64,000 bases of DNA, taken from the IMG/VR virus record IMGVR_UViG_3300045988_080781; one strand, written 5' to 3'. The notes beneath the pieces are model-generated. The model searched no databases. It was not told where the DNA came from and saw only the letters and a program-made list of their open reading frames with translations. Source of the DNA: a virus. Shown here one piece after another: positions 1-29,400 of the stretch (the stretch's first letter is position 1; every line of letters begins with the position of its first letter). The translations under genes and the position numbers were made by a program.

Positions 1-63
1 ACAAGTGCTGCCACTGTTGCTCTTAAAAAGCATTTTAATTCTGGATATTGTGATAAGGATACA
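1..63 (+). CDS. 3' end of a gene that starts upstream of the window (partial)
   Basis: Frame 1 is open from position 1 (TSAATVALKKHFNSGYCDKDT) and ends at TGA 61-63; codon usage resembles the other plus-strand genes. Confidence 0.3.
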
Positions 64-300
64 TGATGGTGAAGATGATGGTGAAGATGATGGAGAAGAT
101 GGTAGAGAAGATGGTAGAGAAGATGGTGCTGAATCTAATCCTCCTTCTAATTCTCAACTCAATCTTACTCCTCTTCTTCCTCTTACTTTATTTATTACAG
201 CCCATTCTTACTGTAATACAATTCTACATCATCATTATCTTAATCCTCATCTTAATCATCCTTATCATTATCATCTTAATCCTCATCATCTTTGACATAT
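64..300. repeat. Degenerate 12-bp tandem repeat tracts
   Basis: gatggtgaagat x2, then gatggagaagat, then ggtagagaagat x2 at 64-130. A second tract of atcttaatcctc-like 12-mers lies at 230-300. The first tract would encode (DGED)n only in a frame with no nearby start codon. Confidence 0.5.
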
Positions 301-598
301 TTATCATTAAACTCATCATTATGCTCGATTGTATCGAGATTTATCCCTTCAGGATATAATCTCTCATTATATAGTACAATCATACATGATAATGATAATG
401 CTAATCATCCAGCTGATAAATCATTAAACAGTAATAATGATAATATATTTACTGCTATTGATATTTATCAGTTGTCCAGTATTAGTATTAGAAATAAATC
501 GAGCATGATTGAAATAAAATCTGTAAAAATATTTGCATGATACAAATAGTTTTATATATTTGTGTCATAATAAATCTATTAATAATAATAATAAAGAT

Positions 599-1196: not shown

Positions 1197-1403
1197 ATGA
1201 TTGTTAGCAATCTTACAGGTGAAACTAGCTTAACTATTAAAGCTATGAGTGATTTTATAGATAATGAAGATATTATTGATAAGGAAGGAACTGAAATATA
1301 TTCTGAACTTGTTGATAATGATTTTGACGAAGCTGGTTGGGATCCAGTTATTGAAGATGATGATGAAGATGAAGATGATATATTTGGTTATCATAATAAT
1401 TAA
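1197..1403 (+). CDS. small highly acidic protein (68 aa)
   Basis: ORF with D/E-rich sequence (…VIEDDDEDEDDIFGY); lies in the leading part of the plus-strand block. Confidence 0.4.
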   Translation: MIVSNLTGETSLTIKAMSDFIDNEDIIDKEGTEIYSELVDNDFDEAGWDPVIEDDDEDEDDIFGYHNN

Positions 1404-1440
1404 CATATTATTAATTTTTTAAATAGAGGAGATATTAAAA

Positions 1441-1896
1441 ATGAAATTTGAAGAAGTACTGAAAGAAGTATTAGACAGCATTGAAAATAAAACAAATAAT
1501 ATTCGTGCTGAAAAACATAAAGCTCTTGTTAAATCTATTATTTATAATAAAGAAGTTTCTGAACGTAAAGGTACAACTTTCCGTGATACTTTGACAACTA
1601 CTATGTCTGTACCTGAAACAGATAAAGAACTTGAAGAATGTTTCTGTGTTTCTTGTATTGCTGAAAATATGGAAATGTTTACTGATGATGAGATTAAAGC
1701 TATCGGTATTAAAAACTTTGTAGATATTGTTCAACGTATGCGTCTTATTATCAATATGCAAGTTGAACATAATATTAAGCGTTTTCAAAAAGTTATTGAT
1801 CATGCTTATTCACTTGAAAATGAGACAAGACTTGATTATAATTCTATGTCTAAAGAACAACTTATTGAAGAACTCAAAAAATATGAAGGTAAATAG
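1441..1896 (+). CDS. hypothetical protein (151 aa)
   Basis: Clean ORF preceded by agaggagatattaaaaATG; no recognisable motif. Confidence 0.6.
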   Translation: MKFEEVLKEVLDSIENKTNNIRAEKHKALVKSIIYNKEVSERKGTTFRDTLTTTMSVPETDKELEECFCVSCIAENMEMFTDDEIKAIGIKNFVDIVQRMRLIINMQVEHNIKRFQKVIDHAYSLENETRLDYNSMSKEQLIEELKKYEGK

Positions 1897-2015
1897 TTAT
1901 GTTATTTAGTTGTGGAAAGTAATGTTCGTGCTTGTGAAAGTATAGTTACTTATTATCTTGTTAGAATGGTTTCATAGACTATAATTTTAAAGTTAAACTT
2001 ATAGACACATTAAAT

Positions 2016-2513
2016 GTTACGGTTCGTGAGAATAGTAACATTGCTTTAACTAATGAAAATAAAGATATTAACAATCTCTGTTTTGCGTTTATAATTATTT
2101 GGACTGAAAATTATTATTTTATATCAATGATCAGTTACGGTATTATGGTTCGTGAGAATAGTAATACCACTCCTTATTTAACTAATGAAACTAAAGATAT
2201 ATGTAAACTCACTTTGTGGTATTATTATTTTACATTTTTGTGGTCGTTTAATTAGTATTGAAAATTCTTATAATACTACTATTCGTGAGAATACTGGTAT
2301 TATGACAAGCCAATTGATTATAATTATGATTGAAAATTTATTAATACTACTGTTCGTGAGAATCGTAGTATTATTTCTAATACAAATTATAAATATGCTG
2401 ATGAGTCTTAATAAGACGAAACAAATAATGTTATTATTTGTCCATATTTATTTGTTTAGAAAAATAATGAAAGTCTTTTGTCCTAGCATTGTTTGTGAAA
2501 ATAGTGCTAGGAC
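2016..2513 (+). promoter_or_regulatory. cluster of five stem-loops with conserved loop YGKTTYGTGARAAT and covarying stems (possible origin or structured RNA/DNA regulatory region)
   Basis: Hairpin 1: 2016-2039, stems gttac/gtaac. Hairpin 2: 2139-2168, stems ggtatta/taatacc. Hairpin 3: 2272-2302, stems aatac/gtatt. Hairpin 4: 2343-2372, stems aatactac/gtagtatt. Hairpin 5: 2480-2513, stems gtcctagca/tgctaggac, followed by ttttctt. Loops are ggttcgtgagaata, tggttcgtgagaatag, ..attcgtgagaatactgg, tgttcgtgagaatc and ttgtttgtgaaaatag. Confidence 0.55.
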
Positions 2514-2520
2514 TTTTCTT
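2480..2520 (+). terminator. candidate intrinsic terminator (fifth stem-loop plus T-run)
   Basis: 9-bp perfect stem gtcctagca/tgctaggac with a 16-nt loop, followed by ttttctt. Confidence 0.35.
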
Positions 2521-2766
2521 ATTAATACTATTAGTATTAATGTTAGTAATAATGTTAATCTTAATAGTGATATTCGGCTGAGCCTGCACCTGTATATAAT
2601 AGCGTGCTGGAACATGGCAAATTTGCCCACTCTCGTAAGCCACAATCACTTCAAATACTGAAAATGAATAATCCTACACAATCAAAATTGAATAGCGGAT
2701 TTGGGCTTATTTTAAGTCAGAACACACTATATATTGAGAACTATACATTTATTTATTAATTTAATC

Positions 2767-3006
2767 ATGGAGATAAAACTTATGAAGATTGTAAAAGAAC
2801 TTACAGCTATGTTTAGTGAAGGTAGTGATGCAACTCGTATAGATTGCGAAATTACTACAGATGTTGAAAATAATGTAGTCACTATTAGCATTACTAATAA
2901 AAATGATGTTGAAGGTGAATGCATAACTGTTAATAAATCTGACTTTGACGTTTTTGTTCAAGAGTATATTAGGACTTATAATATTACTGCTTATGCTACT
3001 CTATAA
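2767..3006 (+). CDS. hypothetical protein (about 79 aa)
   Basis: ORF 2734-3006; internal ATG at 2767 (MEIKLMKIV...) is preferred. Confidence 0.4.
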   Translation: MEIKLMKIVKELTAMFSEGSDATRIDCEITTDVENNVVTISITNKNDVEGECITVNKSDFDVFVQEYIRTYNITAYATL

Positions 3007-3229
3007 AGACGTAAAAGAAGGTGTTAAACGTAATGATATTGTTATTTGTGATATTAATAGACTTGCTATTATTGATCAAATTGATGAGGAAAATAAAATA
3101 GTTGAACTTACATTTATTGATAATGGATTTCAATGTTTTGTTAGACTTAAACAAATTCGTTATGTTAATCATAATACTGAGAAAGCTGCTTGTAGTTATC
3201 GTACATTAATTGCTAAAATGAAACATTGA
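2993..3229 (+). CDS. hypothetical protein (about 78 aa)
   Basis: ORF 2945-3229; ATG at 2993 overlaps the upstream stop codon (operon-style coupling). Confidence 0.4.
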   Translation: MLLYKDVKEGVKRNDIVICDINRLAIIDQIDEENKIVELTFIDNGFQCFVRLKQIRYVNHNTEKAACSYRTLIAKMKH

Positions 3230-3230
3230 T

Positions 3231-3452
3231 ATGATAAATACTATTGTATCTTTCCATATTGCTGTTGTTATTGCAGCTATTTCATTTTGTTATTATTCTG
3301 GTAAAATTCTTGGTTTTCTAACAATTAAAAGTAATAGTAAATATAATAAATATGCTTGGATTGCTTTTATAATTGCAAGTATTGTTATTATAGCTTATTG
3401 TACTTATCATTGTTATGATTCTATAGAATATTATAAAGCTACATCTCGATAG
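3231..3452 (+). CDS. small membrane protein (two predicted TM helices)
   Basis: Two long hydrophobic segments (IAVVIAAISFCYY and IAFIIASIVIIAYC). Confidence 0.5.
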   Translation: MINTIVSFHIAVVIAAISFCYYSGKILGFLTIKSNSKYNKYAWIAFIIASIVIIAYCTYHCYDSIEYYKATSR

Positions 3453-3872: not shown

Positions 3873-4331
3873 ATGCCTACGTTTAATTTCGCTCTTAAAA
3901 TCGCTGGCAGAGCGAAAAGAAAAACTAGTACTTCTAGTATAAGCGTAATACATAAAGATATTGAAGCTGTTATAAAAGTTGATGTTGAAGGGAAATATCA
4001 TATTGTTCATGAAGATGTAAAATATTCTATCCATCCTGATTGTTATAACAATAAAGGTAAGAAAGAAATATATCTTAAAAGACTTGATGAATATGGTCAT
4101 AGAATTAAAATAGTTCGTGATAAAGATTCTCGAGTTAATATGAATAATGAATTTTATTGTCCTTTTGCTCCCGGTCTTGTAGTTAAAGGTAATATTATTA
4201 AAGATCATGGACTTGTTTATTATTATATTAAACAAATTTATAATCTTGGAGGTATTGATTTAACTAAAGATGTTGTTAATGAATGGCGTGAATATCTTGA
4301 AAACGAAAAAAACTTTGAAGATGGAATTTAG
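3873..4331 (+). CDS. hypothetical protein (152 aa)
   Basis: ORF; the start region gttatgcctacGtttaattt is near-identical (20 of 21 nt) to the start of the GIY-YIG ORF at 7882 (both begin MPTFNF). Confidence 0.5.
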   Translation: MPTFNFALKIAGRAKRKTSTSSISVIHKDIEAVIKVDVEGKYHIVHEDVKYSIHPDCYNNKGKKEIYLKRLDEYGHRIKIVRDKDSRVNMNNEFYCPFAPGLVVKGNIIKDHGLVYYYIKQIYNLGGIDLTKDVVNEWREYLENEKNFEDGI

Positions 4332-5763
4332 AGTAAAGAAAGAAGTTACTCTGACTAAATCACAAGAATTTGCAGCTATGGAACTTATTGATTTTATAGC
4401 TGCAAAATTTGATATTAATGATAATATACGAGCTTTATGTGGTCCTGGCGGTACTGGTAAGACTTTTGTTACTAAATATATAATTGATAATTGTAAATTT
4501 AGTAGAAGTCTTATTATTTGTGCAGCTCCGACTCATAAAGCTTGTCGTGTTTTAAGTCAGAGCATAGGAATGGATACTTATACTATTCAGTCTCTTCTTG
4601 GTCTTAGACCAAATCTTGCATTGGAGGATTTCAATCCTGCTAATCCTCAATTTGATCCTATGGGCAAAAATAAACTTGCTGATCCTGAAAAACTTGTTAA
4701 GTTACTTATTATAGATGAAGCTTCAATGCTACCTGCAAAGATGTTTTCATATATAACTGAAACGTGTGAACAAGAACAAATTAAACTTATTTGTATCGGT
4801 GATGCTAGTCAATTGCCTCCTGTTAATGAACGATATAGTATTGCATTTCTTAATAAGAAAACATATTTTCTTAAAGAGATTGTTAGACAAGAAGCTACAA
4901 ATCCTATTACTAAACTTTTAGCTATACTTCGTCAAGATATTAAGAATAGACAATATTCTTTTCTTAATTATATTATTGCTAATCCTTCTTCATTTAATGA
5001 AATAGGTGAAGGATATGCAGTTGTTGGTAGACAGAGATTTGCTGAAATGGTTACTGAGGGATTTAATGATGAAGAATTTACTAAGAATATTGATATGTAT
5101 AGATTGGTTGCTTATACCAATATTGCTGTTACTTCTTGGAATAAATTTATTCGTCAAATTATAATTAAAGATGCTAATCGTTCTATTCTTAACAAGCATG
5201 ATTTGATTATGAGCCGTAAAACCATTGTAGATGAATTTAATACAGCTATTTTGGTTAATTCTGAAGAATATATTATTAATGATATTATAGACTTTATTGA
5301 TCCTGTATATGAGTTCAAAGGTATGATGGTTAGATTTCAATCTATACATGGTGGTAAAATAACTCCTCCAATATTTATTGTAAATCATTTTGATCCTCTT
5401 ACTATAACAAAGTATTATAATATCGTTAATGATTTGATTTCTCGAGCTAAATCTGCTAATACTGGTCGTGCTAGTCTTTGGAAAGAATATTATAAGTTTA
5501 AACGTAAATATTTAATTTGTACTAATATTGTTAGTCCAACTGATCCTAATAAGATTATGATGGAATGTGATTTAGATTATGGTTTTGCTATAACTAGTCA
5601 TAGAGCTCAAGGCAGTACTTATGATAATGTTTATGTTGATATTAATGATATTGTTTACGATAAAACTGGTATGCCTTATGCTAATGCAGATGAAATGCTT
5701 CGTAGATTATATGTTGCCTGTAGTCGTGCAAGAAAGAAGTTAATTATGTGCTATGGTCGATGA
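4321..5763 (+). CDS. SF1 DNA helicase, Dda/RecD/PIF1-like
   Basis: Walker A GPGGTGKT, LIIDEASM (motif II), GDASQLPPV (motif III), C-terminal ITSHRAQGSTYDNVYV and YVACSRARKKL. ATG at 4321 is preferred over 4270. Confidence 0.8.
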   Translation: MEFRVKKEVTLTKSQEFAAMELIDFIAAKFDINDNIRALCGPGGTGKTFVTKYIIDNCKFSRSLIICAAPTHKACRVLSQSIGMDTYTIQSLLGLRPNLALEDFNPANPQFDPMGKNKLADPEKLVKLLIIDEASMLPAKMFSYITETCEQEQIKLICIGDASQLPPVNERYSIAFLNKKTYFLKEIVRQEATNPITKLLAILRQDIKNRQYSFLNYIIANPSSFNEIGEGYAVVGRQRFAEMVTEGFNDEEFTKNIDMYRLVAYTNIAVTSWNKFIRQIIIKDANRSILNKHDLIMSRKTIVDEFNTAILVNSEEYIINDIIDFIDPVYEFKGMMVRFQSIHGGKITPPIFIVNHFDPLTITKYYNIVNDLISRAKSANTGRASLWKEYYKFKRKYLICTNIVSPTDPNKIMMECDLDYGFAITSHRAQGSTYDNVYVDINDIVYDKTGMPYANADEMLRRLYVACSRARKKLIMCYGR

Positions 5764-23459: not shown

Positions 23460-24672
23460 TAAAATAGAACAACTATTTTTTTCAAAGTTTATTAGTTGTG
23501 TCGGTAAGGGTGATATAAAAGGTACTTATATTCCTTACGAAAGAATTGATGCTAATGGTAAAGTATATGTAGGAGATGGAACTATTAATATAGCTTATTA
23601 TCTTACTATGCTTTATAATAAATATAAATATTATTCTTATATAGGCAAAGATACTACTGATATTAAATCCGGAATGTTATTTACACTTCGTACTCTTTTT
23701 CGACTTACTAATAATGCTTATTATTATTTTTCAAATGCTTTTAAAGATAATACTGAAATAGTTGGAGAAAAAGTAAATGGATTCTTTTTAAGAGATGATG
23801 TTGATGATAGTCATATTGTTTCTAATTATACAATGCTGACTACTCCTGCGAATGAAGATCCTTGTCATAGTTCTTTTGTTAGTCAAGATCAAGTTTGGAA
23901 TCTTAATCCTATACTTTATCGACTTTTTAAAGCTTTTTATAAAAAAGATAATGGATCTGATAATATTGGAACTAGAGCTTATCTCTTTGGTTGGTTTATA
24001 AATGAATATATTATGCATTATAATTATACAATTTATAATCCATATCTTAGTAAAGCTTTTCATTTCTTTACATATTGTCCTACTTTTAATACCGATAAAG
24101 TAAAACCTTGGAATCGTCGAGCTGATAGAAAAGCAAATTATAAACCTAAAATCAAGGTTAAACGTGGTGCTAATAATTGGTATTATTCTGGTGGTACTAA
24201 AGCTGCTTATAAAGTATTTGATGGTACTCCTGAAAAAGTAGGAAAATCTTTTAGAGAATTTATTTATAAAGGTATTGTATTTACATTAGATAGAATATAT
24301 GAACCTATTTATCGTATTATCACTGGTAATGATTTCAAGCATAACAGTTATTATTGTTACGCTGCTACATCAGGAATATGGTACAATGCTAACTATAGAG
24401 AAAGATTTGCAAAACGATTTAATGAAAGTCTTACGGATTCGATTGCTAAAGGAACTGAACTCTTTGAGGCAAATATTGCCCCGCTTGTTCTTGGCACTGA
24501 TTCTGTTGATATTGACAATCTTCGTGCTTATCTTAATGCTGTACCTGAACCTGCAACCTCTGGCGAATTAATAAGCCCAGTCCTCGATTTATCATTATGG
24601 TATTGGTACTTGTATATGAATGAAATAGACAAGGCAAATATCACATCTGAGGCACTTTCAAAAGCGAATTGA
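23407..24672 (+). CDS. hypothetical protein (421 aa)
   Basis: Long clean ORF; Tyr/Asn-rich. Confidence 0.55.
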   Translation: MKLYLKNIIKMTIEEKFNKIEQLFFSKFISCVGKGDIKGTYIPYERIDANGKVYVGDGTINIAYYLTMLYNKYKYYSYIGKDTTDIKSGMLFTLRTLFRLTNNAYYYFSNAFKDNTEIVGEKVNGFFLRDDVDDSHIVSNYTMLTTPANEDPCHSSFVSQDQVWNLNPILYRLFKAFYKKDNGSDNIGTRAYLFGWFINEYIMHYNYTIYNPYLSKAFHFFTYCPTFNTDKVKPWNRRADRKANYKPKIKVKRGANNWYYSGGTKAAYKVFDGTPEKVGKSFREFIYKGIVFTLDRIYEPIYRIITGNDFKHNSYYCYAATSGIWYNANYRERFAKRFNESLTDSIAKGTELFEANIAPLVLGTDSVDIDNLRAYLNAVPEPATSGELISPVLDLSLWYWYLYMNEIDKANITSEALSKAN

Positions 24673-24693
24673 TTAATTGTATTACCCAGCCTG

Positions 24694-25167
24694 TTGGATG
24701 CGTCTAACAGGCTGAAATTAAGTCAAATTATATTATATATTATGAACGTTGGTAAAGAAGGTTGGTATAATCTTACAGATGAACAAAAAACTGAAGTTCT
24801 TAAACAATATATTAAGGATATTAAGTTTGATAATATTGATTATGCCAAAATGCGAAAAAGAAGAAAATATGTAGAAGAACATCTTGGTAAAGTATCTACG
24901 CTTTATTCAGGTCTTCAAAATCCTTGTTTAGTTCTTTCATGTCCTGATGAAAATATGACCGATATAATATATAGTCTTCTATTTCATAATGTTGAAGTAG
25001 AAAATGTTTATAAAGGACCTGTTCCTATTATTGGTTATTTTGTTGATGCTATTTATAATGATCCTGCTTCTTTAGCTGGATTTGATGAAGACGAAAAGAA
25101 AATAATAACTCAAGCTGTTCAAATACTTAAAGATAAAGGTTGTTATGACAGTAAAAGAATTAATTAA
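24694..25167 (+). CDS. hypothetical protein (157 aa)
   Basis: ORF. Confidence 0.5.
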   Translation: MDASNRLKLSQIILYIMNVGKEGWYNLTDEQKTEVLKQYIKDIKFDNIDYAKMRKRRKYVEEHLGKVSTLYSGLQNPCLVLSCPDENMTDIIYSLLFHNVEVENVYKGPVPIIGYFVDAIYNDPASLAGFDEDEKKIITQAVQILKDKGCYDSKRIN

Positions 25168-25283
25168 TGAACTTAGTTATTGCGATAGCGACGCTGTTGT
25201 TCGTCTTGACGGAACTGAGGAAATTGTTATAGGTAATTATGAAGATACTGATGGATATGGTAATGCAGCTGTTTATTTAGAAG

Positions 25284-25487
25284 TTGATAAATATAGACAA
25301 TATGAAAACTAGTAAACTTGTACATGACCATTATGGTTATTATGCAATATGTCCTTATTGTGAAGAAGCTGAACCTTTAACAGATGCTTCTCTTGGAACT
25401 CTCGAAACTGAAGGAGAAACTCATATTGATTGTTCTGTTTGTAATAGAACTTTCAAAGTTGTTGGTAAATATAAACCTAATTATTAA
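25284..25487 (+). CDS. zinc-ribbon protein (67 aa)
   Basis: CPYCEE ... CSVCNRTF. Confidence 0.5.
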   Translation: MINIDNMKTSKLVHDHYGYYAICPYCEEAEPLTDASLGTLETEGETHIDCSVCNRTFKVVGKYKPNY

Positions 25488-25502
25488 TTTAAATTTAAAG
25501 TT

Positions 25503-26156
25503 ATGTCTAAATTTATTGGCGTAAAAATGATTGAAGCAACTCCTATGATTGCAGGAGATGCTAAAGCTAAAGGTTACAAAACAAGTAATTATCCAGATAC
25601 TGAAAATGGTTATGAAGTAACTTATCCAGATGGATATAAATCTTGGAGTCCAGCAAGTGTATTTGAGAAATCTTATTATAAACTTGCAGATCCTGTTGGG
25701 GATACTCTTAAAGAAGAAGATATTGAAAGATTTATTGGTAATATTGAAAACTTTAAAGTTGGATCTAAAACAACTAATACTACTCTTACTTGTCTTACTG
25801 GATTTGAAGTTCATGGTCAAGCATCTTGTGTTAAGCCTGAAAATTTTGATTTGAATATTGGTTCGAATTATGCTAAAATTAAAGCTGAAGATAAGATTTG
25901 GGAATGTCTTGGATTTGTTCTTCAATGGGCTAAATATGGTCTTAAAGCTAAAGTTATTCCACCTCATGTTTCTCGTATGATTAAAGAACGTGATGAACTT
26001 CAAGCTAAAATTGTAAAACTTAATAAAATTATTAATGAAAGTGTCGCATTTCAAATGCTTTCTGACGATGAAAGATATGATATAGTATGTCAATCTAAAG
26101 CTATGGATGATTATCTTAATTATCTTTCTAAACGTATTAAAAGAGCTGGATATTAA
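25503..26156 (+). CDS. hypothetical protein (217 aa); last gene of the plus-strand block
   Basis: Clean ORF. Confidence 0.55.
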   Translation: MSKFIGVKMIEATPMIAGDAKAKGYKTSNYPDTENGYEVTYPDGYKSWSPASVFEKSYYKLADPVGDTLKEEDIERFIGNIENFKVGSKTTNTTLTCLTGFEVHGQASCVKPENFDLNIGSNYAKIKAEDKIWECLGFVLQWAKYGLKAKVIPPHVSRMIKERDELQAKIVKLNKIINESVAFQMLSDDERYDIVCQSKAMDDYLNYLSKRIKRAGY

Positions 26157-26185
26157 GTTCCTAATTACGAACATAGTGCTTGTTT

Positions 26186-26197
26186 CCCTGTAAAGGA
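26186..26197 (-). repeat. dispersed GC-rich motif, variant copy
   Basis: plus strand reads ccctgtaaagga; intergenic. Confidence 0.5.
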
Positions 26198-26256
26198 TGT
26201 GTATGCTGAGCCTGATGCTGACAATCATGTTAGTGTCAGGCTTTCTTATATACATT

Positions 26257-26267
26257 CCTCTACGGGG
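26257..26267 (+). repeat. dispersed GC-rich motif, exact copy
   Basis: cctctacgggg; intergenic. Confidence 0.8.
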
Positions 26268-26382
26268 TAAGTACATTAATCTACATGATTTTTATAATTG
26301 AGCTAAAGCTACAAGTAAACCTTGTGGTTTTAGCCCTTTTTTACTGGTTCGGGGAGTTACATTCGGATTTAATGATATAAAT

Positions 26383-26418
26383 AAAGCTGAATCATACTAT
26401 ATAGTATAACCCAGCTTT
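26383..26418. terminator. bidirectional terminator at the convergence point of the two gene blocks
   Basis: Stem aaagctg/cagcttt enclosing the perfect palindrome atactatatagtat; T-runs on both sides (ttatttt rightward, ataaata leftward). Confidence 0.55.
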
Positions 26419-26440
26419 ATTTTAGTATATAAATAAAATA

Positions 26441-29400
26441 TTATTCAGCAATAAATTCAATTATAGGTTTAGCATTAACAAGACCATTAAAGTTTTCACC
26501 TAATTTATAATAACGATTATTTTTATCAAGACCCATAAATCTATCAATACTACGATAAATAGGAACTTGACGTTCAATATATCTCCATATCTTATTTTCT
26601 CCAGCATAAGGACCATTCTTATAAATAGGATCAAAATCTTTACCTAAAGTAACCATATCAAGAATATAATTTCCAGCAGCAAGCATTTCATTAATAGAAG
26701 TATTAACTGCCATAGGATTACGAGTAAATTTACGAATTTCACCAAATAGACCAATATTATACATATTAGTTTCAGAACTCCAACGATCAAATGTATAAAG
26801 ACCCCAATTAGCTAATAAATTATCATCATCGTCTTCAAGTATAGCACCTGCAATAATATAACCAATAAAAGCATAAGCGGTCATCATTAATTGTGATGCT
26901 ACACGTCTAACATTAGCTCTATCAGTTTCATTCATAATACCGTAATTAAATTTTAAATTCATAGCTGTACTAAATAAACCTGTAACAATAGAAGTAGCGT
27001 AAGCTATAATAACATCTGTTCCATTAAGTTCTCCTTTATCTCTACGTTCAGCTATTTCATTAAATTTACGTTTATATTCTTTACTTGCTAAATGAGCAAA
27101 ACTAACATACATTCCTCGACCATAAGTACCTAAAGTTTCATTATAATAAGTTCTATTTCTAAAATGTTTTAGAATACCATTCCAAATATGTTTATGGAAC
27201 TGCATTAAAAGACTTCCAAAAAATGTAGTAGATTCAATAGTGGCAGCACCTAATTTATTATATACACCATGTATTCTTGTATTTACAAGTTTAGCTTTTT
27301 CAGCAAATTCAGCAATATCTTTTAAAGTAATATCAGAATTATCTTTTAATTTAGCATATCCATCTTTAATTTCAAATTGATCAAGTACATTAGGAGCAGC
27401 ATCATATAATTTCTTAAATTCTGCAATCTTTTTATCTCTAACTTCTTTATATCGTTTTCCAATTATTTTTCTATTTTCAGGATCAAGAGAATCTATAAAT
27501 TGTTCAGCAATATCAACTTTACGAGTTTGATAATCAAACATTAACTTAGTATCATTTTTGATATTTCTAAGCATACGTTCAAAATAAGTATTAAGAACTG
27601 GATTATCTTTAACTATCTCTCTAATAGCAGTACGTTCAGCAGATAATTTATAACTATTAAAATCAACAATTTTATATTTACCACCAACATTTATAATTTT
27701 ATTAGAATACATAAGAGCTAATAAAGCAGTATTTTGCATATAATGTTCACCAGCAGTTTGTGGACTATAAGCAAAACTTTTAAGATCATTAATAAGTTTT
27801 GTTGGATTTAATGCTTTACCGTTATAACTAGTTTCACGAATATTATCATAATCAATTATATTCATAAATTTAAATATAGCATCAATTAAATTATTTGATT
27901 TATCACTATAAGCATTCATAAGAAATGCAGGAGAATTAAGTATATATTTAGCTTTAGCTCTTTCCCAATCTTTATGATTAAAATATTCAGCAGCAAAATA
28001 TTCAGCAGCAATACCAGCAGAACCAGTCAATACGTTACTTACACCACCAAGTATATTAAACATCATATATTTAGCAGAAGTAAGATTTTGCATAACATTT
28101 ATTACAGTATCAAATTTAGTACGAGGTTTATATTGATGTAAAAACATTCTTTTAAATAATACTTCAAGATGTTTAGTAGTATTAACAGCGCGTTCTCGTT
28201 TATATTGTGTAGCATTAGTAGTACTTAATCTTCTATCAACTTTAAGATCTCCTGTAATAGTAGTTTGATAAGCAGGTTTTAATTGTCTATAAAATTCAAG
28301 TAATAAATAAGCATCATTAATCATTCTATTTTTAGCAGTAGTTACATGAGCATTAACAATATAATCATGAAACATTCCTTTATAATCATCATCTCTAACT
28401 TTAGCAATAAGTTCATTATTACGTTTTATAATTTCTTCAGAAGCTTTACGAAATTCTTTAATTCTATCATAATATTGTTCATCAGTTTCTCCAACTAGTC
28501 TAGAAGGAGCTTCAGGTAATCTTTCAAGTCCTGAAGTATAAATATCTTGCATAGATAAATTACGAACATCTGAACCATATACATAAGAAAAATCATCACT
28601 TATACCTCTATTATTATCAAGATTTGCAGTAGCACCAACAAAATTAAGAACACCTTTAGTAAAATTAGCAGGATTATTTTCTATTTTCTTTCTAAATGGA
28701 AATAAAAGTTTATTAACATGAGACATACCACTTTCATTTGTGGCAAATTGTTTCATTTTATCAATAATATAATTTCTAATTTCTTTTTCATATTCAGTAG
28801 CATCATCTTTTCTAAAATACTTTTTATCTCCAGTTTCAAAATTATAATTAGCACCATAAGTTTTATATTTATCATTTTTAGTGCCCGGCTTAGGTTCAGT
28901 ATAAGCATTTAAATAATTAGGTTTATGTTCAGCTTTATACTCACTATCTTCAGTAGCTTCAATATTAGTCCATATTTGAATTGGTTCATATTTATGACTC
29001 ATAGGATTGTATACATGATTTTCTTCAAACCATTCATCATATCTACCTTCAGCTTTAGCTTTATTAGCTGCCATATCATAATATTCAGTAGTACTACTTT
29101 TAACATTATTATTAATCCAAATTTTAGCAGCCATTTTATCTTTATCAAGGAATTTATCTTTTACATGTTCTTTAGGTACAGCATAAGAATAAATATAATC
29201 ATTTTTACTATCTTCAGCAAAACTAATACCATTAAATACTCTATGCATATTAGATAATTTATTAAATGCTTCATACCATTCTTTATCAGCATTTGTATTA
29301 TCTGGATCATCATATGCTTCTTTAGCTAATTGTCTATCTCTTTCAATAGCATTATTATCATATACATAATCAACGTTTTCATTAATAAAATCTCTAGCAG

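What the first reader, a model, noticed from the sequence alone, without database searches (positions are those of the whole stretch)
2011..2520. Five stem-loops with a conserved loop and covarying stems in an 860-bp non-coding region
The region between the genes ending at 1896 and starting near 2767 holds five hairpins in the same orientation. The loops are nearly identical: ggttcgtgagaata, tggttcgtgagaatag, ..attcgtgagaatactgg, tgttcgtgagaatc and ttgtttgtgaaaatag. The stems are unrelated in sequence but remain complementary: gttac/gtaac, ggtatta/taatacc, aatac/gtatt, aatactac/gtagtatt and gtcctagca/tgctaggac. Copies 1 and 2 also share a downstream block of about 25 nt (ttaactaatgaaa[ac]taaagatat).

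A conserved loop with compensatory stem changes is the classic signature of a functional hairpin. It could be an RNA operator or processing site, a protein-binding ssDNA hairpin, or a phage replication-origin or primosome-assembly-like structure next to the replication genes. The last hairpin is followed by a T-run and could also act as a terminator. The 158-aa ORF predicted through this region (2185-2661) is low-complexity and probably not real.
Basis: seen in the sequence. Interest (0 to 1): 0.65.

Follow-up and report, generated by a model that had tools for sequence, protein, structure and literature searches.

The report
GNGA-capped RNA hairpin array in crAssphage
The five hairpins are real copies of an undescribed RNA hairpin with a conserved cap and free-varying stem, common in phages of gut Bacteroidales (including crAssphage), where it sits just before tRNAs, self-cleaving ribozymes or U-runs; its function is unknown.

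Summary
Observation confirmed and extended. Window 2013-2513 (+) holds five hairpins, plus a degenerate sixth at 1917-1951. They are the only matches in 64 kb to a covariance model of the motif.

It reads: variable lower stem (6-9 bp), an N·A mismatch, a G·U pair, a 3-bp covarying helix, and a GNGA (mostly GUGA) tetraloop.

The same module with unrelated stems occurs in at least 77 phage or prophage lineages. These include p-crAssphage (four in the syntenic array, one after the portal gene), PhiCrAss001 and a Mu-like Bacteroides prophage. In bacterial assemblies, stemmed copies are almost only in Bacteroidales.

G·U far outnumbers A·C in the stems, the hairpins are intergenic, and they point the same way as their neighbours. 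That indicates a sense-strand RNA structure. Copies lie 2-5 nt before tRNAs, 1 nt before a Hatchet cleavage site, or directly before U-runs.

A type-I hammerhead-like element (2390-2447) sits between hairpins 4 and 5. The 158-aa ORF is not conserved.

No Rfam family or paper matches the motif. My best reading is an RNA hairpin read by a trans-acting factor, marking or stabilising RNA ends. The factor and the function are inferred, not shown. A replication-origin or primosome role is not supported.

The parts
1917..1951 (+). Degenerate sixth copy ('hairpin 0'): AGUAAU-[GUUCGU bulge]-G-CUU-GUGA-AAG-UA-(U)AGUUACU
   Evidence: Sequence. It folds as a hairpin, but weakly (-7.9 kcal/mol, z -1.9). 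It is conserved in L242, where a G-to-A change turns a U·G pair into U-A. The strict descriptor does not find it.
2013..2042 (+). Capped hairpin 1: aauguuac-G-G-UUC-GUGA-GAA-U-A-guaacauu
   Evidence: R1 42.0 bits, E 4e-9. Minimum-energy hairpin, z -4.3.
2044..2069 (+). Conserved block after hairpin 1 (CUUUAACUAAUGAAAAUAAAGAUAUU); repeated after hairpin 2 at 2176-2201
   Evidence: Direct repeats D5/D6/D9. Identical in relative L242. Function unknown. It starts only a mini-ORF: 13 aa here, and the copy-2 equivalent in L242 is 7 aa.
2139..2168 (+). Capped hairpin 2: gguauuau-G-G-UUC-GUGA-GAA-U-A-guaauacc
   Evidence: R1 42.5 bits, E 3e-9. z -3.5. The closing U·G pair becomes C-G in L242.
2268..2305 (+). 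Capped hairpin 3 (variant: A-U replaces the G·U pair, shifted 3' side)
   Evidence: R1 20.6 bits. z -5.4. In L242 a C-G pair becomes U-A (change on both sides) and a U·G pair becomes U-A.
2342..2373 (+). Capped hairpin 4: uaauacuac-U-G-UUC-GUGA-GAA-U-C-guaguauua
   Evidence: R1 31.5 bits. z -4.8. The tetraloop is GCGA in L242, so still GNGA.
2390..2447 (+). Type-I hammerhead ribozyme candidate: stem I AUAUG/CAUAU, core CUGAUGAG, stem II UCUU-AAU-AAGA, CGAAAC, stem III, GUC; predicted cleavage between 2442 and 2443
   Evidence: Rfam RAGATH-1-hammerhead 31.8 bits (E 0.0035) and Hammerhead_3 25.5 bits, both below gathering score. The minimum-energy fold is the three-way junction. The core is invariant, and stem I shows two double compensatory changes against L242. 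Self-cleavage has not been tested.
2480..2520 (+). Capped hairpin 5 (GC-richer, 15 continuous pairs, UUU/AAA upper helix) plus U-run: terminator-like end of the array
   Evidence: R1 27.7 bits. -22.2 kcal/mol, z -8.1. It is the only terminator-like hit in 1400-3200. It is orthologous to p-crAssphage copy 4566-4597. Changes against L242 keep pairing only through G·U.
2570..2767 (+). Highly conserved, GC-richer segment between the array and the next gene; nature unknown and possibly not part of the hairpin system
   Evidence: Only about 8 substitutions against L242 over about 200 nt, while the array spacers carry indels. The 51-aa GTG ORF here changes mostly non-synonymously. No Rfam hit.

Best explanation
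**What it is (supported here)**
- The five (or six) elements are copies of a sense-strand RNA hairpin module.
- The lower stem is 6-9 bp of any sequence.
- The cap is conserved: 5'-N-G-[NNN]-G-N-G-A-[N'N'N']-U-A-3'. This gives an N·A mismatch, a G·U wobble, a 3-bp covarying helix and a GNGA tetraloop.

**How the array works (inferred)**
- The array is transcribed with the + strand replication-module genes as a non-coding stretch of about 0.6 kb.
- The embedded hammerhead cuts it.
- The GC-rich fifth hairpin plus its U-run ends it.

**Proposed role (inferred)**
- The invariant cap is a recognition surface for a trans-acting factor present in Bacteroidales infections.
- That factor is more likely a host protein or RNP than a phage-specific one.
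- The hairpin works as a modular RNA-end or 'punctuation' element.
- Wherever it occurs, a 3' end can be made at or within a few nucleotides of its base. The three routes are intrinsic termination (U-run), RNase P cleavage at an abutting tRNA, or ribozyme self-cleavage.
- The result is an RNA that ends in the capped hairpin, which would be protected or marked.

**Shown versus inferred**
- Shown: the structure, the folding strand, the distribution and the positional coupling.
For: **The structure is real**
- Of 148 exact core hits in IMG/VR loci, about 130 are flanked by 5-13 complementary bases of unrelated sequence.
- Chance hits in non-Bacteroidales genomes have stems of only 1-4 bp, which serves as an internal control.
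- A composition-shuffled control gave 0 hits.
- The upper 3-bp helix is fully paired in 35 of 36 candidates other than UUC/GAA. Triplets seen include UCU/AGA, CUU/AAG, UGC/GCA, CCC/GGG and AUU/AAU.
- The loop is GNGA: GUGA 35, GCGA 6, GGGA 2, GAGA 1. There is no credible GNAA variant; the single GGAA candidate looks like a chance hairpin.

**The folding strand is the RNA sense strand**
- The closing pair is C-G in 58 copies and U·G in 57.
- Of 144 distinct hairpins, 140 are intergenic. The downstream gene is on the same strand in 107 cases and the opposite strand in 19.

**Coupling to RNA-end formation**
- 22 of 148 hairpins have a same-strand tRNA starting within 13 nt downstream, with a mode of 2-5 nt. 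None has an opposite-strand tRNA that close.
- In L013 the Hatchet cleavage site (GUC|UUCA) lies 1 nt after the hairpin base. In L037 the Hatchet lies 11 nt after.
- 57 of 148 are followed by a run of at least 4 T, but only 3 of the 22 tRNA-adjacent ones are.
- Both GC-rich p-crAssphage copies (4566-4597, and 86220-86253 just after the portal gene) carry U-runs.

**Breadth without a partner gene**
- There are at least 77 lineages, and no neighbouring protein family is shared by more than 12 of them.
- Hosts are Bacteroidales. Examples include a Mu-like prophage, PhiCrAss001 and p-crAssphage.

**Orthologous copies keep pairing**
- Copies in the 93%-identical relative L242 keep pairing through compensatory or wobble changes.
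Against: - No transcript data were available.
- Hairpins 1-4 in this window have no recognisable cleavage module directly downstream. Only the hammerhead, about 70 nt after hairpin 4, qualifies.
- For these four, the '3'-end' logic is weakest in the very locus under study. A tandem array fits a multivalent decoy at least as well.
- In tRNA arrays the RNA that would be 'protected' is only a spacer.
- Many U-run copies lie 22-67 nt before an ORF start with no room for a promoter. They must therefore be read through, which fits attenuation or antitermination equally well.
Confidence: 0.42

Rival explanations
1. Multivalent decoy or sponge. The hairpins are themselves the payload. The array (and the tRNA-array spacers released by RNase P and RNase Z) supplies many copies of one binding site. 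These copies titrate or scaffold a host RNA-binding protein or nuclease, as CsrB/RsmZ do for CsrA.
For: - Carjivirus-type phages carry 4-6 tandem copies in a gene-free stretch. The spacers between them are poorly constrained, with indels against L242.
- The stems differ between neighbouring copies, as in sponge RNAs.
- L050 has at least 7 copies in 2.2 kb.
- There is no partner gene nearby.
- Host chromosomes lack the motif, which fits a parasitic mimic.
Against: - Many phages carry single copies between ORFs or one copy per genome region. PhiCrAss001 has one in its first 50 kb, and the Mu-like prophage has one.
- The tight 1-5 nt coupling to cleavage sites and to U-runs is not needed for a sponge, although it could serve to release the hairpins.
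Confidence: 0.2
2. Co-transcriptional control of RNA polymerase. The capped hairpin is a nut/put-like or attenuator element. Either the cap binds an antiterminator or the RNA polymerase itself, or the hairpin plus U-run is a leaky, regulated terminator. Either way it sets read-through into downstream genes and into untranslated, Rho-sensitive tRNA or ncRNA arrays.
For: - 39% of copies carry U-runs.
- U-run copies lie 22-67 nt before ORF starts, so transcription must read through them.
- One copy sits between the ner-like genes and the transposase in a Mu-like early operon.
- T-rich, TTTG-containing sequence lies just upstream in several lineages.
- A fresh hairpin after every RNase P or ribozyme cut would re-tether a cis-acting element.
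Against: - Most copies (61%) have no U-run.
- AU-rich stems of 6-9 bp with a mismatch make poor terminators.
- There is no boxA-like or second-stem element, and no conserved sequence outside the hairpin.
- Five copies in tandem are not needed for antitermination.
Confidence: 0.15
3. Factor-independent folding insulator. The hairpin is a fast-folding clamp that keeps flanking sequence from mispairing with the adjacent tRNA, ribozyme or ribosome-loading region. The cap is conserved only because it is an optimal nucleation unit.
For: - The hairpin lies immediately 5' of structured RNAs and 20-55 nt before start codons.
- The C(GNGA)G cap is a stable tetraloop unit.
- Different stems within one transcript avoid cross-pairing.
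Against: - Stability alone does not explain the invariant G·U wobble, the N·A mismatch, or the third-position G of the loop (no credible GNAA variant).
- In this window only the array hairpins carry the cap.
Confidence: 0.1
4. Single-stranded DNA element. The hairpin extrudes on the non-template (lagging-strand template) DNA. There it acts as a priming or primosome-assembly signal, a replication origin, a hairpin promoter (N4-like) or a recombination site.
For: - The array lies in the replication module.
- The coding strand is transiently single-stranded if replication and transcription are co-directional.
- DNA GNA/GNRA-type loops are stable.
Against: - There is no GC-skew inflection at 2 kb; the switch is at about 26 kb.
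- Copies occur at many sites and in many phage types, strictly coupled in strand and distance to tRNA 5' ends, a ribozyme cleavage site and U-runs.
- 15% G·T 'pairs' in short AT-rich stems would be costly in DNA.
- N4 promoters have 3-nt loops and form on the template strand.
Confidence: 0.05

Closest known systems
Lambdoid nut-site boxB hairpins (N antitermination) and HK022 put RNAs
   Same: - Phage-encoded sense-strand RNA hairpins in leaders or intergenic positions.
- The conserved part is the GNRA-like apical region and the stem is free to vary.
- They act on the transcript or on the polymerase.
   Different: - boxB is a 5-bp stem with a pentaloop. It is paired with boxA, occurs about twice per genome, and is read by a phage-specific N protein.
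- put consists of two stems of about 70 nt.
- Here there is a single 12-15-bp helix with a G·U/N·A module and a GNGA loop, no boxA, up to 7 copies per locus, and sharing across unrelated phage types.
T7 RNase III processing signals and other intercistronic stabiliser hairpins
   Same: - Repeated, same-orientation intergenic hairpins in polycistronic phage RNA.
- They define RNA ends and leave a protective 3' hairpin.
- An internal mismatch lies between the lower and upper stems.
   Different: - T7 sites are about 20 bp or more, which fits RNase III.
- These helices are 11-14 bp, and their conserved part is the cap.
- No cleavage within the hairpin is implied. The ends appear to be made just outside it by RNase P, ribozymes or termination.
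CsrB/RsmZ-type multi-hairpin sponge RNAs
   Same: - Tandem hairpins with one conserved apical motif and dissimilar stems in a non-coding transcript that ends in a terminator.
   Different: - There is no GGA motif, and Bacteroidetes lack CsrA.
- Single copies also occur between genes, and copies are positionally coupled to tRNAs and ribozymes.
tRNA- or ribozyme-defined 3' ends (MALAT1-mascRNA, tRNA punctuation, RiboJ-type ribozyme+hairpin insulators)
   Same: - A structured element placed directly against a tRNA or a self-cleaving ribozyme, so that cleavage creates a defined RNA end next to a protective structure.
   Different: - Those are eukaryotic, mitochondrial or synthetic systems.
- No equivalent conserved cap is known in them.
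RAGATH neighbourhoods (RNAs associated with genes associated with twister and hammerhead ribozymes; Rfam RAGATH-1, -7, -9, Hatchet)
   Same: - The motif co-occurs with them: RAGATH-7, RAGATH-9 and Hatchet in L013 and L110, and a RAGATH-1-like hammerhead inside this array.
   Different: - The hairpin matches no Rfam family even at E of 10 or below.
- I could not check the unpublished or unsubmitted RAGATH candidates.
Intrinsic (Rho-independent) terminators
   Same: - Hairpin 5 here, p-crAssphage 4566-4597 and 86220-86253, and 39% of all copies are GC-containing hairpins followed by a U-run.
   Different: - Most copies, including hairpins 1-4 here, lack a U-run and have weak AU stems.
- Ordinary terminators do not share a 9-nt invariant cap across unrelated phages.

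Membership tests
Any Rfam 15 family | Covariance-model match at or near the gathering score over the hairpins | tested here: not met
   The whole window gave 0 hits at gathering score. Region 1850-2800 at E of 10 or below gave no hit overlapping any hairpin.
Hammerhead ribozyme (embedded element 2390-2447) | Core C3 U4 G5 A6 N7 G8 A9 ... G12 A13 A14, A15.1-U16.1, H17, and three stems around the junction | tested here: met
   All core positions are present (CUGAUGAG...CGAAAC...GUC|C). The three stems form in the minimum-energy fold. Stem I covaries with L242.
Hammerhead ribozyme (embedded element 2390-2447) | Rfam gathering score; demonstrated self-cleavage | tested here: not met
   Scores were 31.8 bits against a gathering score of 56.3 (RAGATH-1-hammerhead), and 25.5 against 48.5 (Hammerhead_3). 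Cleavage cannot be tested with these tools.
Intrinsic terminator | Stable GC-containing stem immediately followed by a U-run | tested here: met
   Met for hairpin 5 only (2480-2513 + TTTTCTT). Hairpins 1-4 have no U-run.
Lambda-type nut site | boxA element next to a 5-bp stem/pentaloop boxB; N-type protein | tested here: not met
   No conserved sequence lies outside the hairpin. The helix is 12-15 bp with a tetraloop. N-like proteins were not searched for.
HK022 put RNA | Two-stem structure of about 65-70 nt downstream of early promoters | tested here: not met
   Only a single 28-34-nt hairpin is conserved.
RNase III processing site (T7 type) | About two turns (roughly 20 bp or more) of dsRNA with an internal loop | tested here: not met
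   The lower stem is 5-10 bp (mode 8) and the cap adds 5 pairs, giving 11-14 bp.
N4-type hairpin promoter | 5-7-bp stem with a 3-nt loop, on the template strand | tested here: not met
   The loop is a tetraloop on a 4-bp upper helix. The G·U excess shows that the sense (non-template) strand folds.
Primosome assembly site / ssi signal / replication origin | Origin activity or priming on ssDNA; skew inflection; single locus per replicon | tested here: inconclusive
   There is no skew switch at 2 kb. The motif is multi-locus and coupled to tRNAs and ribozymes. Biochemical activity cannot be tested here.
Protein-coding gene (ORF 2185-2661) | Reading frame conserved in relatives; homologues | tested here: not met
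   Frame-breaking indels appear against L242. No PHROG family matches.
tRNA or tRNA-like element | Cloverleaf detected by ARAGORN or Rfam | tested here: not met
   No tRNA or tmRNA is found in the window, and there is no Rfam tRNA hit.

The most novel reading that the evidence does not exclude
The GNGA-capped hairpin is a previously undescribed, very abundant RNA module of phages that infect Bacteroidales, including the prototypical crAssphage. Through a 9-nt invariant cap it engages a conserved host machine (RNA polymerase, an RNase or exonuclease, or an RNA-binding protein). Unrelated phages use it as a portable signal to control the fate of their tRNA, ribozyme and mRNA transcripts. That would make it a new class of phage cis/trans RNA element with a still unknown reader.
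Probability: 0.4. Interest if true: 0.85.

Novelty: new variant of a known kind. Interest (0 to 1): 0.74.

Why it matters
- crAss-like phages are among the most abundant viruses of the human gut, and almost nothing is known about their RNA-level regulation.
- This is a compact, easily recognised RNA module shared by crAss-like, Mu-like and very large phages of Bacteroidales.
- It is physically coupled to phage tRNAs and to Hatchet and hammerhead ribozymes.
- That coupling gives a concrete handle on two open questions: what the phage 'ribozyme neighbourhoods' are for, and how phage tRNA arrays are processed in Bacteroidales.
- The invariant cap predicts a specific binding partner that can be fished out biochemically.
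- The motif is also a useful annotation mark for phage non-coding loci that are now filled with spurious ORFs.

Tried and rejected
**Database and literature searches that found nothing**
- Rfam at gathering score and at E of 10 or below gave nothing over the hairpins.
- A blastn search of the 874-bp region against 50,697 phage records gave no match.
- A full-text search for the core sequence found only unrelated primer hits.
- The theta-ribozyme paper does not mention upstream hairpins.
- No paper in the library holds both 'crAssphage' and 'hammerhead ribozyme'.
- The 10,006-csRNA virus paper has no mention of the motif and no supplement is held.
- The Weinberg 2015 RAGATH paper is not held.

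**Hypotheses tested on the sequences**
- Promoter idea: no TTTG or TAnnTTTG lies at a fixed distance upstream. TTTGTG-type words are enriched upstream in some lineages. However, spacers as short as 18-24 nt after the preceding tRNA leave no room for a promoter.
- Fixed start-site idea: stem length plus gap to the tRNA is not constant, ranging from 9 to 21.
- Partner-protein idea: no family is shared by more than 12 of 77 lineages within about 7 kb. The ORFs downstream of hairpins are unrelated to each other.
- tRNA T-arm mimicry (GGUUCG): rejected, because UUC covaries with GAA and is replaced by UCU, CUU and others.
- Sarcin-ricin or SRP-helix-8 mimicry: rejected for the same reason, and no Rfam hit supports it.
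- k-turn: rejected, because there is no 3-nt bulge or tandem G·A.

**Searches for more relatives**
- Using the flanking protein, the helicase and the hammerhead core returned only one related contig.
- cr3_1 (Diorhovirus) has no copy in the syntenic 17 kb.

**p-crAssphage hammerhead-like sequence**
- The sequence after copy 1 has the core, but stems I and III are unconvincing.
Full report
**1. What is in the window**

The window is an AT-rich crAss-like phage. Its helicase and PolB region is about 71% identical at the nucleotide level to Carjivirus communis, the prototypical crAssphage.

Between the ORF ending at 1896 and the next gene near 2768 there is no credible coding sequence. TTCGTGAGAAT occurs exactly at 2023, 2149, 2282 and 2353, and with two mismatches at 2492, all on the + strand.

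Each copy folds as the minimum-energy structure into a hairpin:

| Hairpin | Coordinates |
|---|---|
| 1 | 2013-2042 |
| 2 | 2139-2168 |
| 3 | 2268-2305 |
| 4 | 2342-2373 |
| 5 | 2480-2513 |

The z-scores run from -3.5 to -8.1.

The conserved 14-16 nt are not a loop. G·U plus UUC/GAA pair and are capped by a GUGA tetraloop, and a single N·A mismatch separates this cap from the variable lower stem.

A degenerate sixth copy lies at 1917-1951. Hairpin 5 is GC-richer, fully paired and followed by UUUUCUU. It is the only terminator-like site in 1400-3200.

**2. The motif is far more than a local repeat**

A scan of IMG/VR for GTTCGTGAGAATAG stopped at its 120-locus limit. Of 148 core matches in those loci, about 130 are flanked by 5-13 complementary bases whose sequences are unrelated from copy to copy.

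The same 15-mer in 185,579 species' genomes gave a built-in control:
- Hits in Myxococcota, Acidobacteria, Chloroflexota and similar groups have 1-4 'pairs'.
- Hits with 6-9-bp stems are almost all in Prevotella, Bacteroides, Parabacteroides, Muribaculaceae and other Bacteroidales assemblies.

Two isolate-genome cases that I annotated are prophages. One is Mu-like, in B. neonati, with a CI-type repressor and a MuB-like ATPase. The other, in Prevotella, carries RusA.

A descriptor that frees the inner triplets finds further variants. A composition-shuffled control gave zero hits.

Unbiased counts:
- Among candidates that are not UUC/GAA, the three inner positions are all paired in 35 of 36.
- The tetraloop is GNGA (GUGA 35, GCGA 6, GGGA 2, GAGA 1). 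The only GNAA-type candidate is a single GGAA that looks like a chance hairpin.
- The flanking G...UA is almost invariant (206 of 232).
- The pair closing the lower stem is C-G in 58 copies and U·G in 57.

The structure therefore forms on the strand shown, in an RNA-like manner.

The consensus is: stem (6-9 bp) - N - G - NNN - GNGA - N'N'N' - U - A - stem'.

**3. Relatives of this phage**

A covariance model built from 87 unrelated copies finds only the five hairpins in the whole 64-kb window. They score 42.5, 42.0, 31.5, 27.7 and 20.6 bits, and the next unrelated site scores 15 bits.

p-crAssphage carries four copies in the syntenic gap between gp08 and gp09, at 4287-4318, 4402-4433, 4486-4517 and 4566-4597:
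- Their upper helices are UCU/AGA or AUU/AAU.
- The last copy (GCCUAGCA...UGCUAGGC + UUUU) is orthologous to hairpin 5.

Scanning the whole p-crAssphage genome adds one more copy, on the - strand at 86220-86253. It lies 32 nt after the portal gene, is GC-rich and has a U-run.

A 93%-identical relative (L242) has the same five hairpins. Its changes preserve pairing:

| Hairpin | Change in L242 |
|---|---|
| 2 | U·G becomes C-G |
| 3 | C-G becomes U-A, and U·G becomes U-A |
| 4 | loop GUGA becomes GCGA |
| 5 | U-A becomes U·G, and G-C becomes G·U |

The hairpin 5 changes would be mismatches on the other strand.

The same alignment has indels of 1, 2 and 11 nt inside ORF 2185-2661. Together with the absence of any PHROG match, this removes the 158-aa ORF.

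PhiCrAss001 has one copy in its first 50 kb, at 1879-1908, 5-6 nt before tRNA-Glu. cr3_1 has none in the syntenic 17 kb.

**4. What the hairpin sits next to**

Of 144 distinct copies, 140 are intergenic. The downstream gene is on the same strand in 107 cases and on the opposite strand in 19.

Three kinds of downstream neighbour recur:
- **tRNAs.** 22 of 148 copies have a same-strand tRNA starting within 13 nt, with a mode of 2-5 nt. None has an opposite-strand tRNA within 20 nt. In L050, seven hairpins interleave with a tRNA array, one per spacer and none between directly abutting tRNAs.
- **Ribozymes.** In L013 the Hatchet ribozyme's cleavage site (GUC|UUCA) lies one nucleotide after the hairpin base. 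In L037 a Hatchet starts 11 nt after. RAGATH-7 and RAGATH-9 RNAs occur in the same loci.
- **U-runs.** 57 of 148 copies are followed by a run of at least 4 T, but only 3 of the 22 tRNA-adjacent ones are.

About 50 copies lie 7-90 nt before an ORF start, and those ORFs are unrelated to one another.

The loci fall into at least 77 lineages. No neighbouring protein family is shared by more than 12 of them.

**5. The embedded hammerhead**

Between hairpins 4 and 5, Rfam's hammerhead models match 2384-2447. The scores are below gathering: RAGATH-1-hammerhead 31.8 bits (E 0.0035) and Hammerhead_3 25.5 bits.

- Every core nucleotide is present: AUAUG-CUGAUGAG-UCUUAAUAAGA-CGAAAC-stem III-GUC|CAUAU.
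- The minimum-energy fold is the three-way junction.
- L242 keeps the core, while stem I changes by two double substitutions (G-C to A-U, and A-U to G-C).
- The predicted cut is between 2442 and 2443.
- p-crAssphage has a hammerhead-like core after its first hairpin, but its stems I and III are not convincing.

**6. Mechanism**

Shown here:
- The element is a sense-strand, RNA-type hairpin with an invariant cap.
- It is specific to phages and prophages of Bacteroidales.
- It is positionally coupled to three different ways of making an RNA 3' end at or just beyond its base: U-run termination, RNase P cleavage at an abutting tRNA, and Hatchet self-cleavage.

Inferred:
- The cap is a recognition surface for a trans-acting factor.
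- That factor is probably host-encoded, because crAss-like, Mu-like and very large phages share the cap without sharing a neighbouring gene.
- The hairpin marks or protects RNA ends. I rate this best explanation at about 0.42.

In this window the array would be a non-coding transcript of about 0.6 kb, cut by the hammerhead and ended by hairpin 5.

The weak point is that hairpins 1-4 here have no adjacent cleavage module. A tandem array fits a multivalent decoy at least as well (rival, 0.2).

The remaining rivals:
- **Read-through control (0.15).** U-run copies lie 22-67 nt before ORFs, which leaves no room for a promoter, so they must be read through.
- **Pure folding insulator (0.1).** This does not explain the invariant G·U, the N·A mismatch or the GNGA loop.
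- **ssDNA roles (0.05).** Origin, primosome or hairpin-promoter roles fit poorly with the strand and distance coupling to tRNAs and ribozymes, the G·T content, and a GC-skew switch at about 26 kb rather than 2 kb.

**7. Novelty and caveats**

- No Rfam 15 family covers the hairpin.
- The core sequence is absent from 8 million full texts.
- The papers on phage tRNA-associated ribozymes and viral structured RNAs that I could read do not describe it.
- I could not read the 2015 RAGATH paper or its candidate list, so an unnamed earlier sighting cannot be excluded.
Prevalence figures are therefore lower bounds, and genome-wide co-occurrence with a protein was not tested.
- There are no expression data.

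Noticed in passing
window 2390-2447 (+): A type-I hammerhead ribozyme candidate lies between hairpins 4 and 5. The full core is present, stem I covaries with a relative, and the predicted cut is between 2442 and 2443. It scores below Rfam's gathering score. No paper in the library links hammerheads with crAssphage.
   Followed up: yes
window 2570-2767 (+): A GC-richer segment of about 200 nt after the array is much better conserved against L242 than the array spacers are. No convincing ORF is present: the 51-aa GTG frame changes mostly non-synonymously. No Rfam hit. It could be another ncRNA or a leader.
   Followed up: partly
window 2044-2069 and 2176-2201 (+): A conserved block, UUUAACUAAUGAAA(A/C)UAAAGAUAU, follows hairpins 1 and 2 and is identical in L242. 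It opens only mini-ORFs (MKIKI..., 13 aa after hairpin 1; 7 aa at the copy-2 position in L242). A similar AAGAUAUUU lies at a comparable distance after capped hairpins in L058.
   Followed up: partly
BK010471.1 (p-crAssphage) 86220-86253, - strand (L249): A fifth capped hairpin in crAssphage lies outside the array, 32 nt after the portal gene. It is GC-rich, has a U-run, and has a CUU/AAG upper helix, so it looks like a late-operon terminator.
   Followed up: partly
L054 / L059 / L039 (IMG/VR loci): The tRNA genes directly after capped hairpins carry insertions of about 30-80 nt (Rfam tRNA matches spanning 98-155 nt). ARAGORN misses or mis-types them. They may be introns or unusual arms.
   Followed up: no
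L058 (- strand, about 1960-3250 in reverse-complement coordinates): A repeated unit occurs: capped hairpin - UUUUGAAAGA - small GGGAC-GAAA-GUCC hairpin - AUCAAGAUAUUU. The upstream ATTGAAAATT matches the sequence before window hairpins 3 and 4.
   Followed up: no
L016, L021, L025, L033 and similar loci: A conserved element of about 80 nt (AUAUCUCUAAACGUGAACAUAAGGAGGUACGUAAGUCAUUCGAUUGACGUUAGGGAUC) lies between a capped hairpin and a 234-aa ORF. No Rfam hit at E of 0.01 or below.
   Followed up: no
L188 4439-4458; also L069, L079, L095: A palindrome, GCTACAAAGGTAGC, lies directly upstream of the capped hairpin in Mu-like prophage early regions. On the opposite strand it reads TAccTTTG, the Bacteroides -7 promoter box.
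   Followed up: no
L002, L054, L085 families: A mini-hairpin GCUC-GUGA-GAGU lies about 40 nt upstream of the capped hairpin, and a repeated GT-rich stretch (UGUCGUGUUUUAUUUUGUGUUUGUG) lies directly before it. This could be a per-tRNA promoter or trailer.
   Followed up: no
window 1-360: A low-complexity repeat region (GAAGATGG-type repeats giving EDG/KMV-rich ORFs in several frames) lies at the left end of the window.
   Followed up: no
window about 24000-28000: GC skew flips sign from +0.17 to -0.18. This presumably marks the switch between the + strand replication module and the - strand module, as in p-crAssphage.
   Followed up: no
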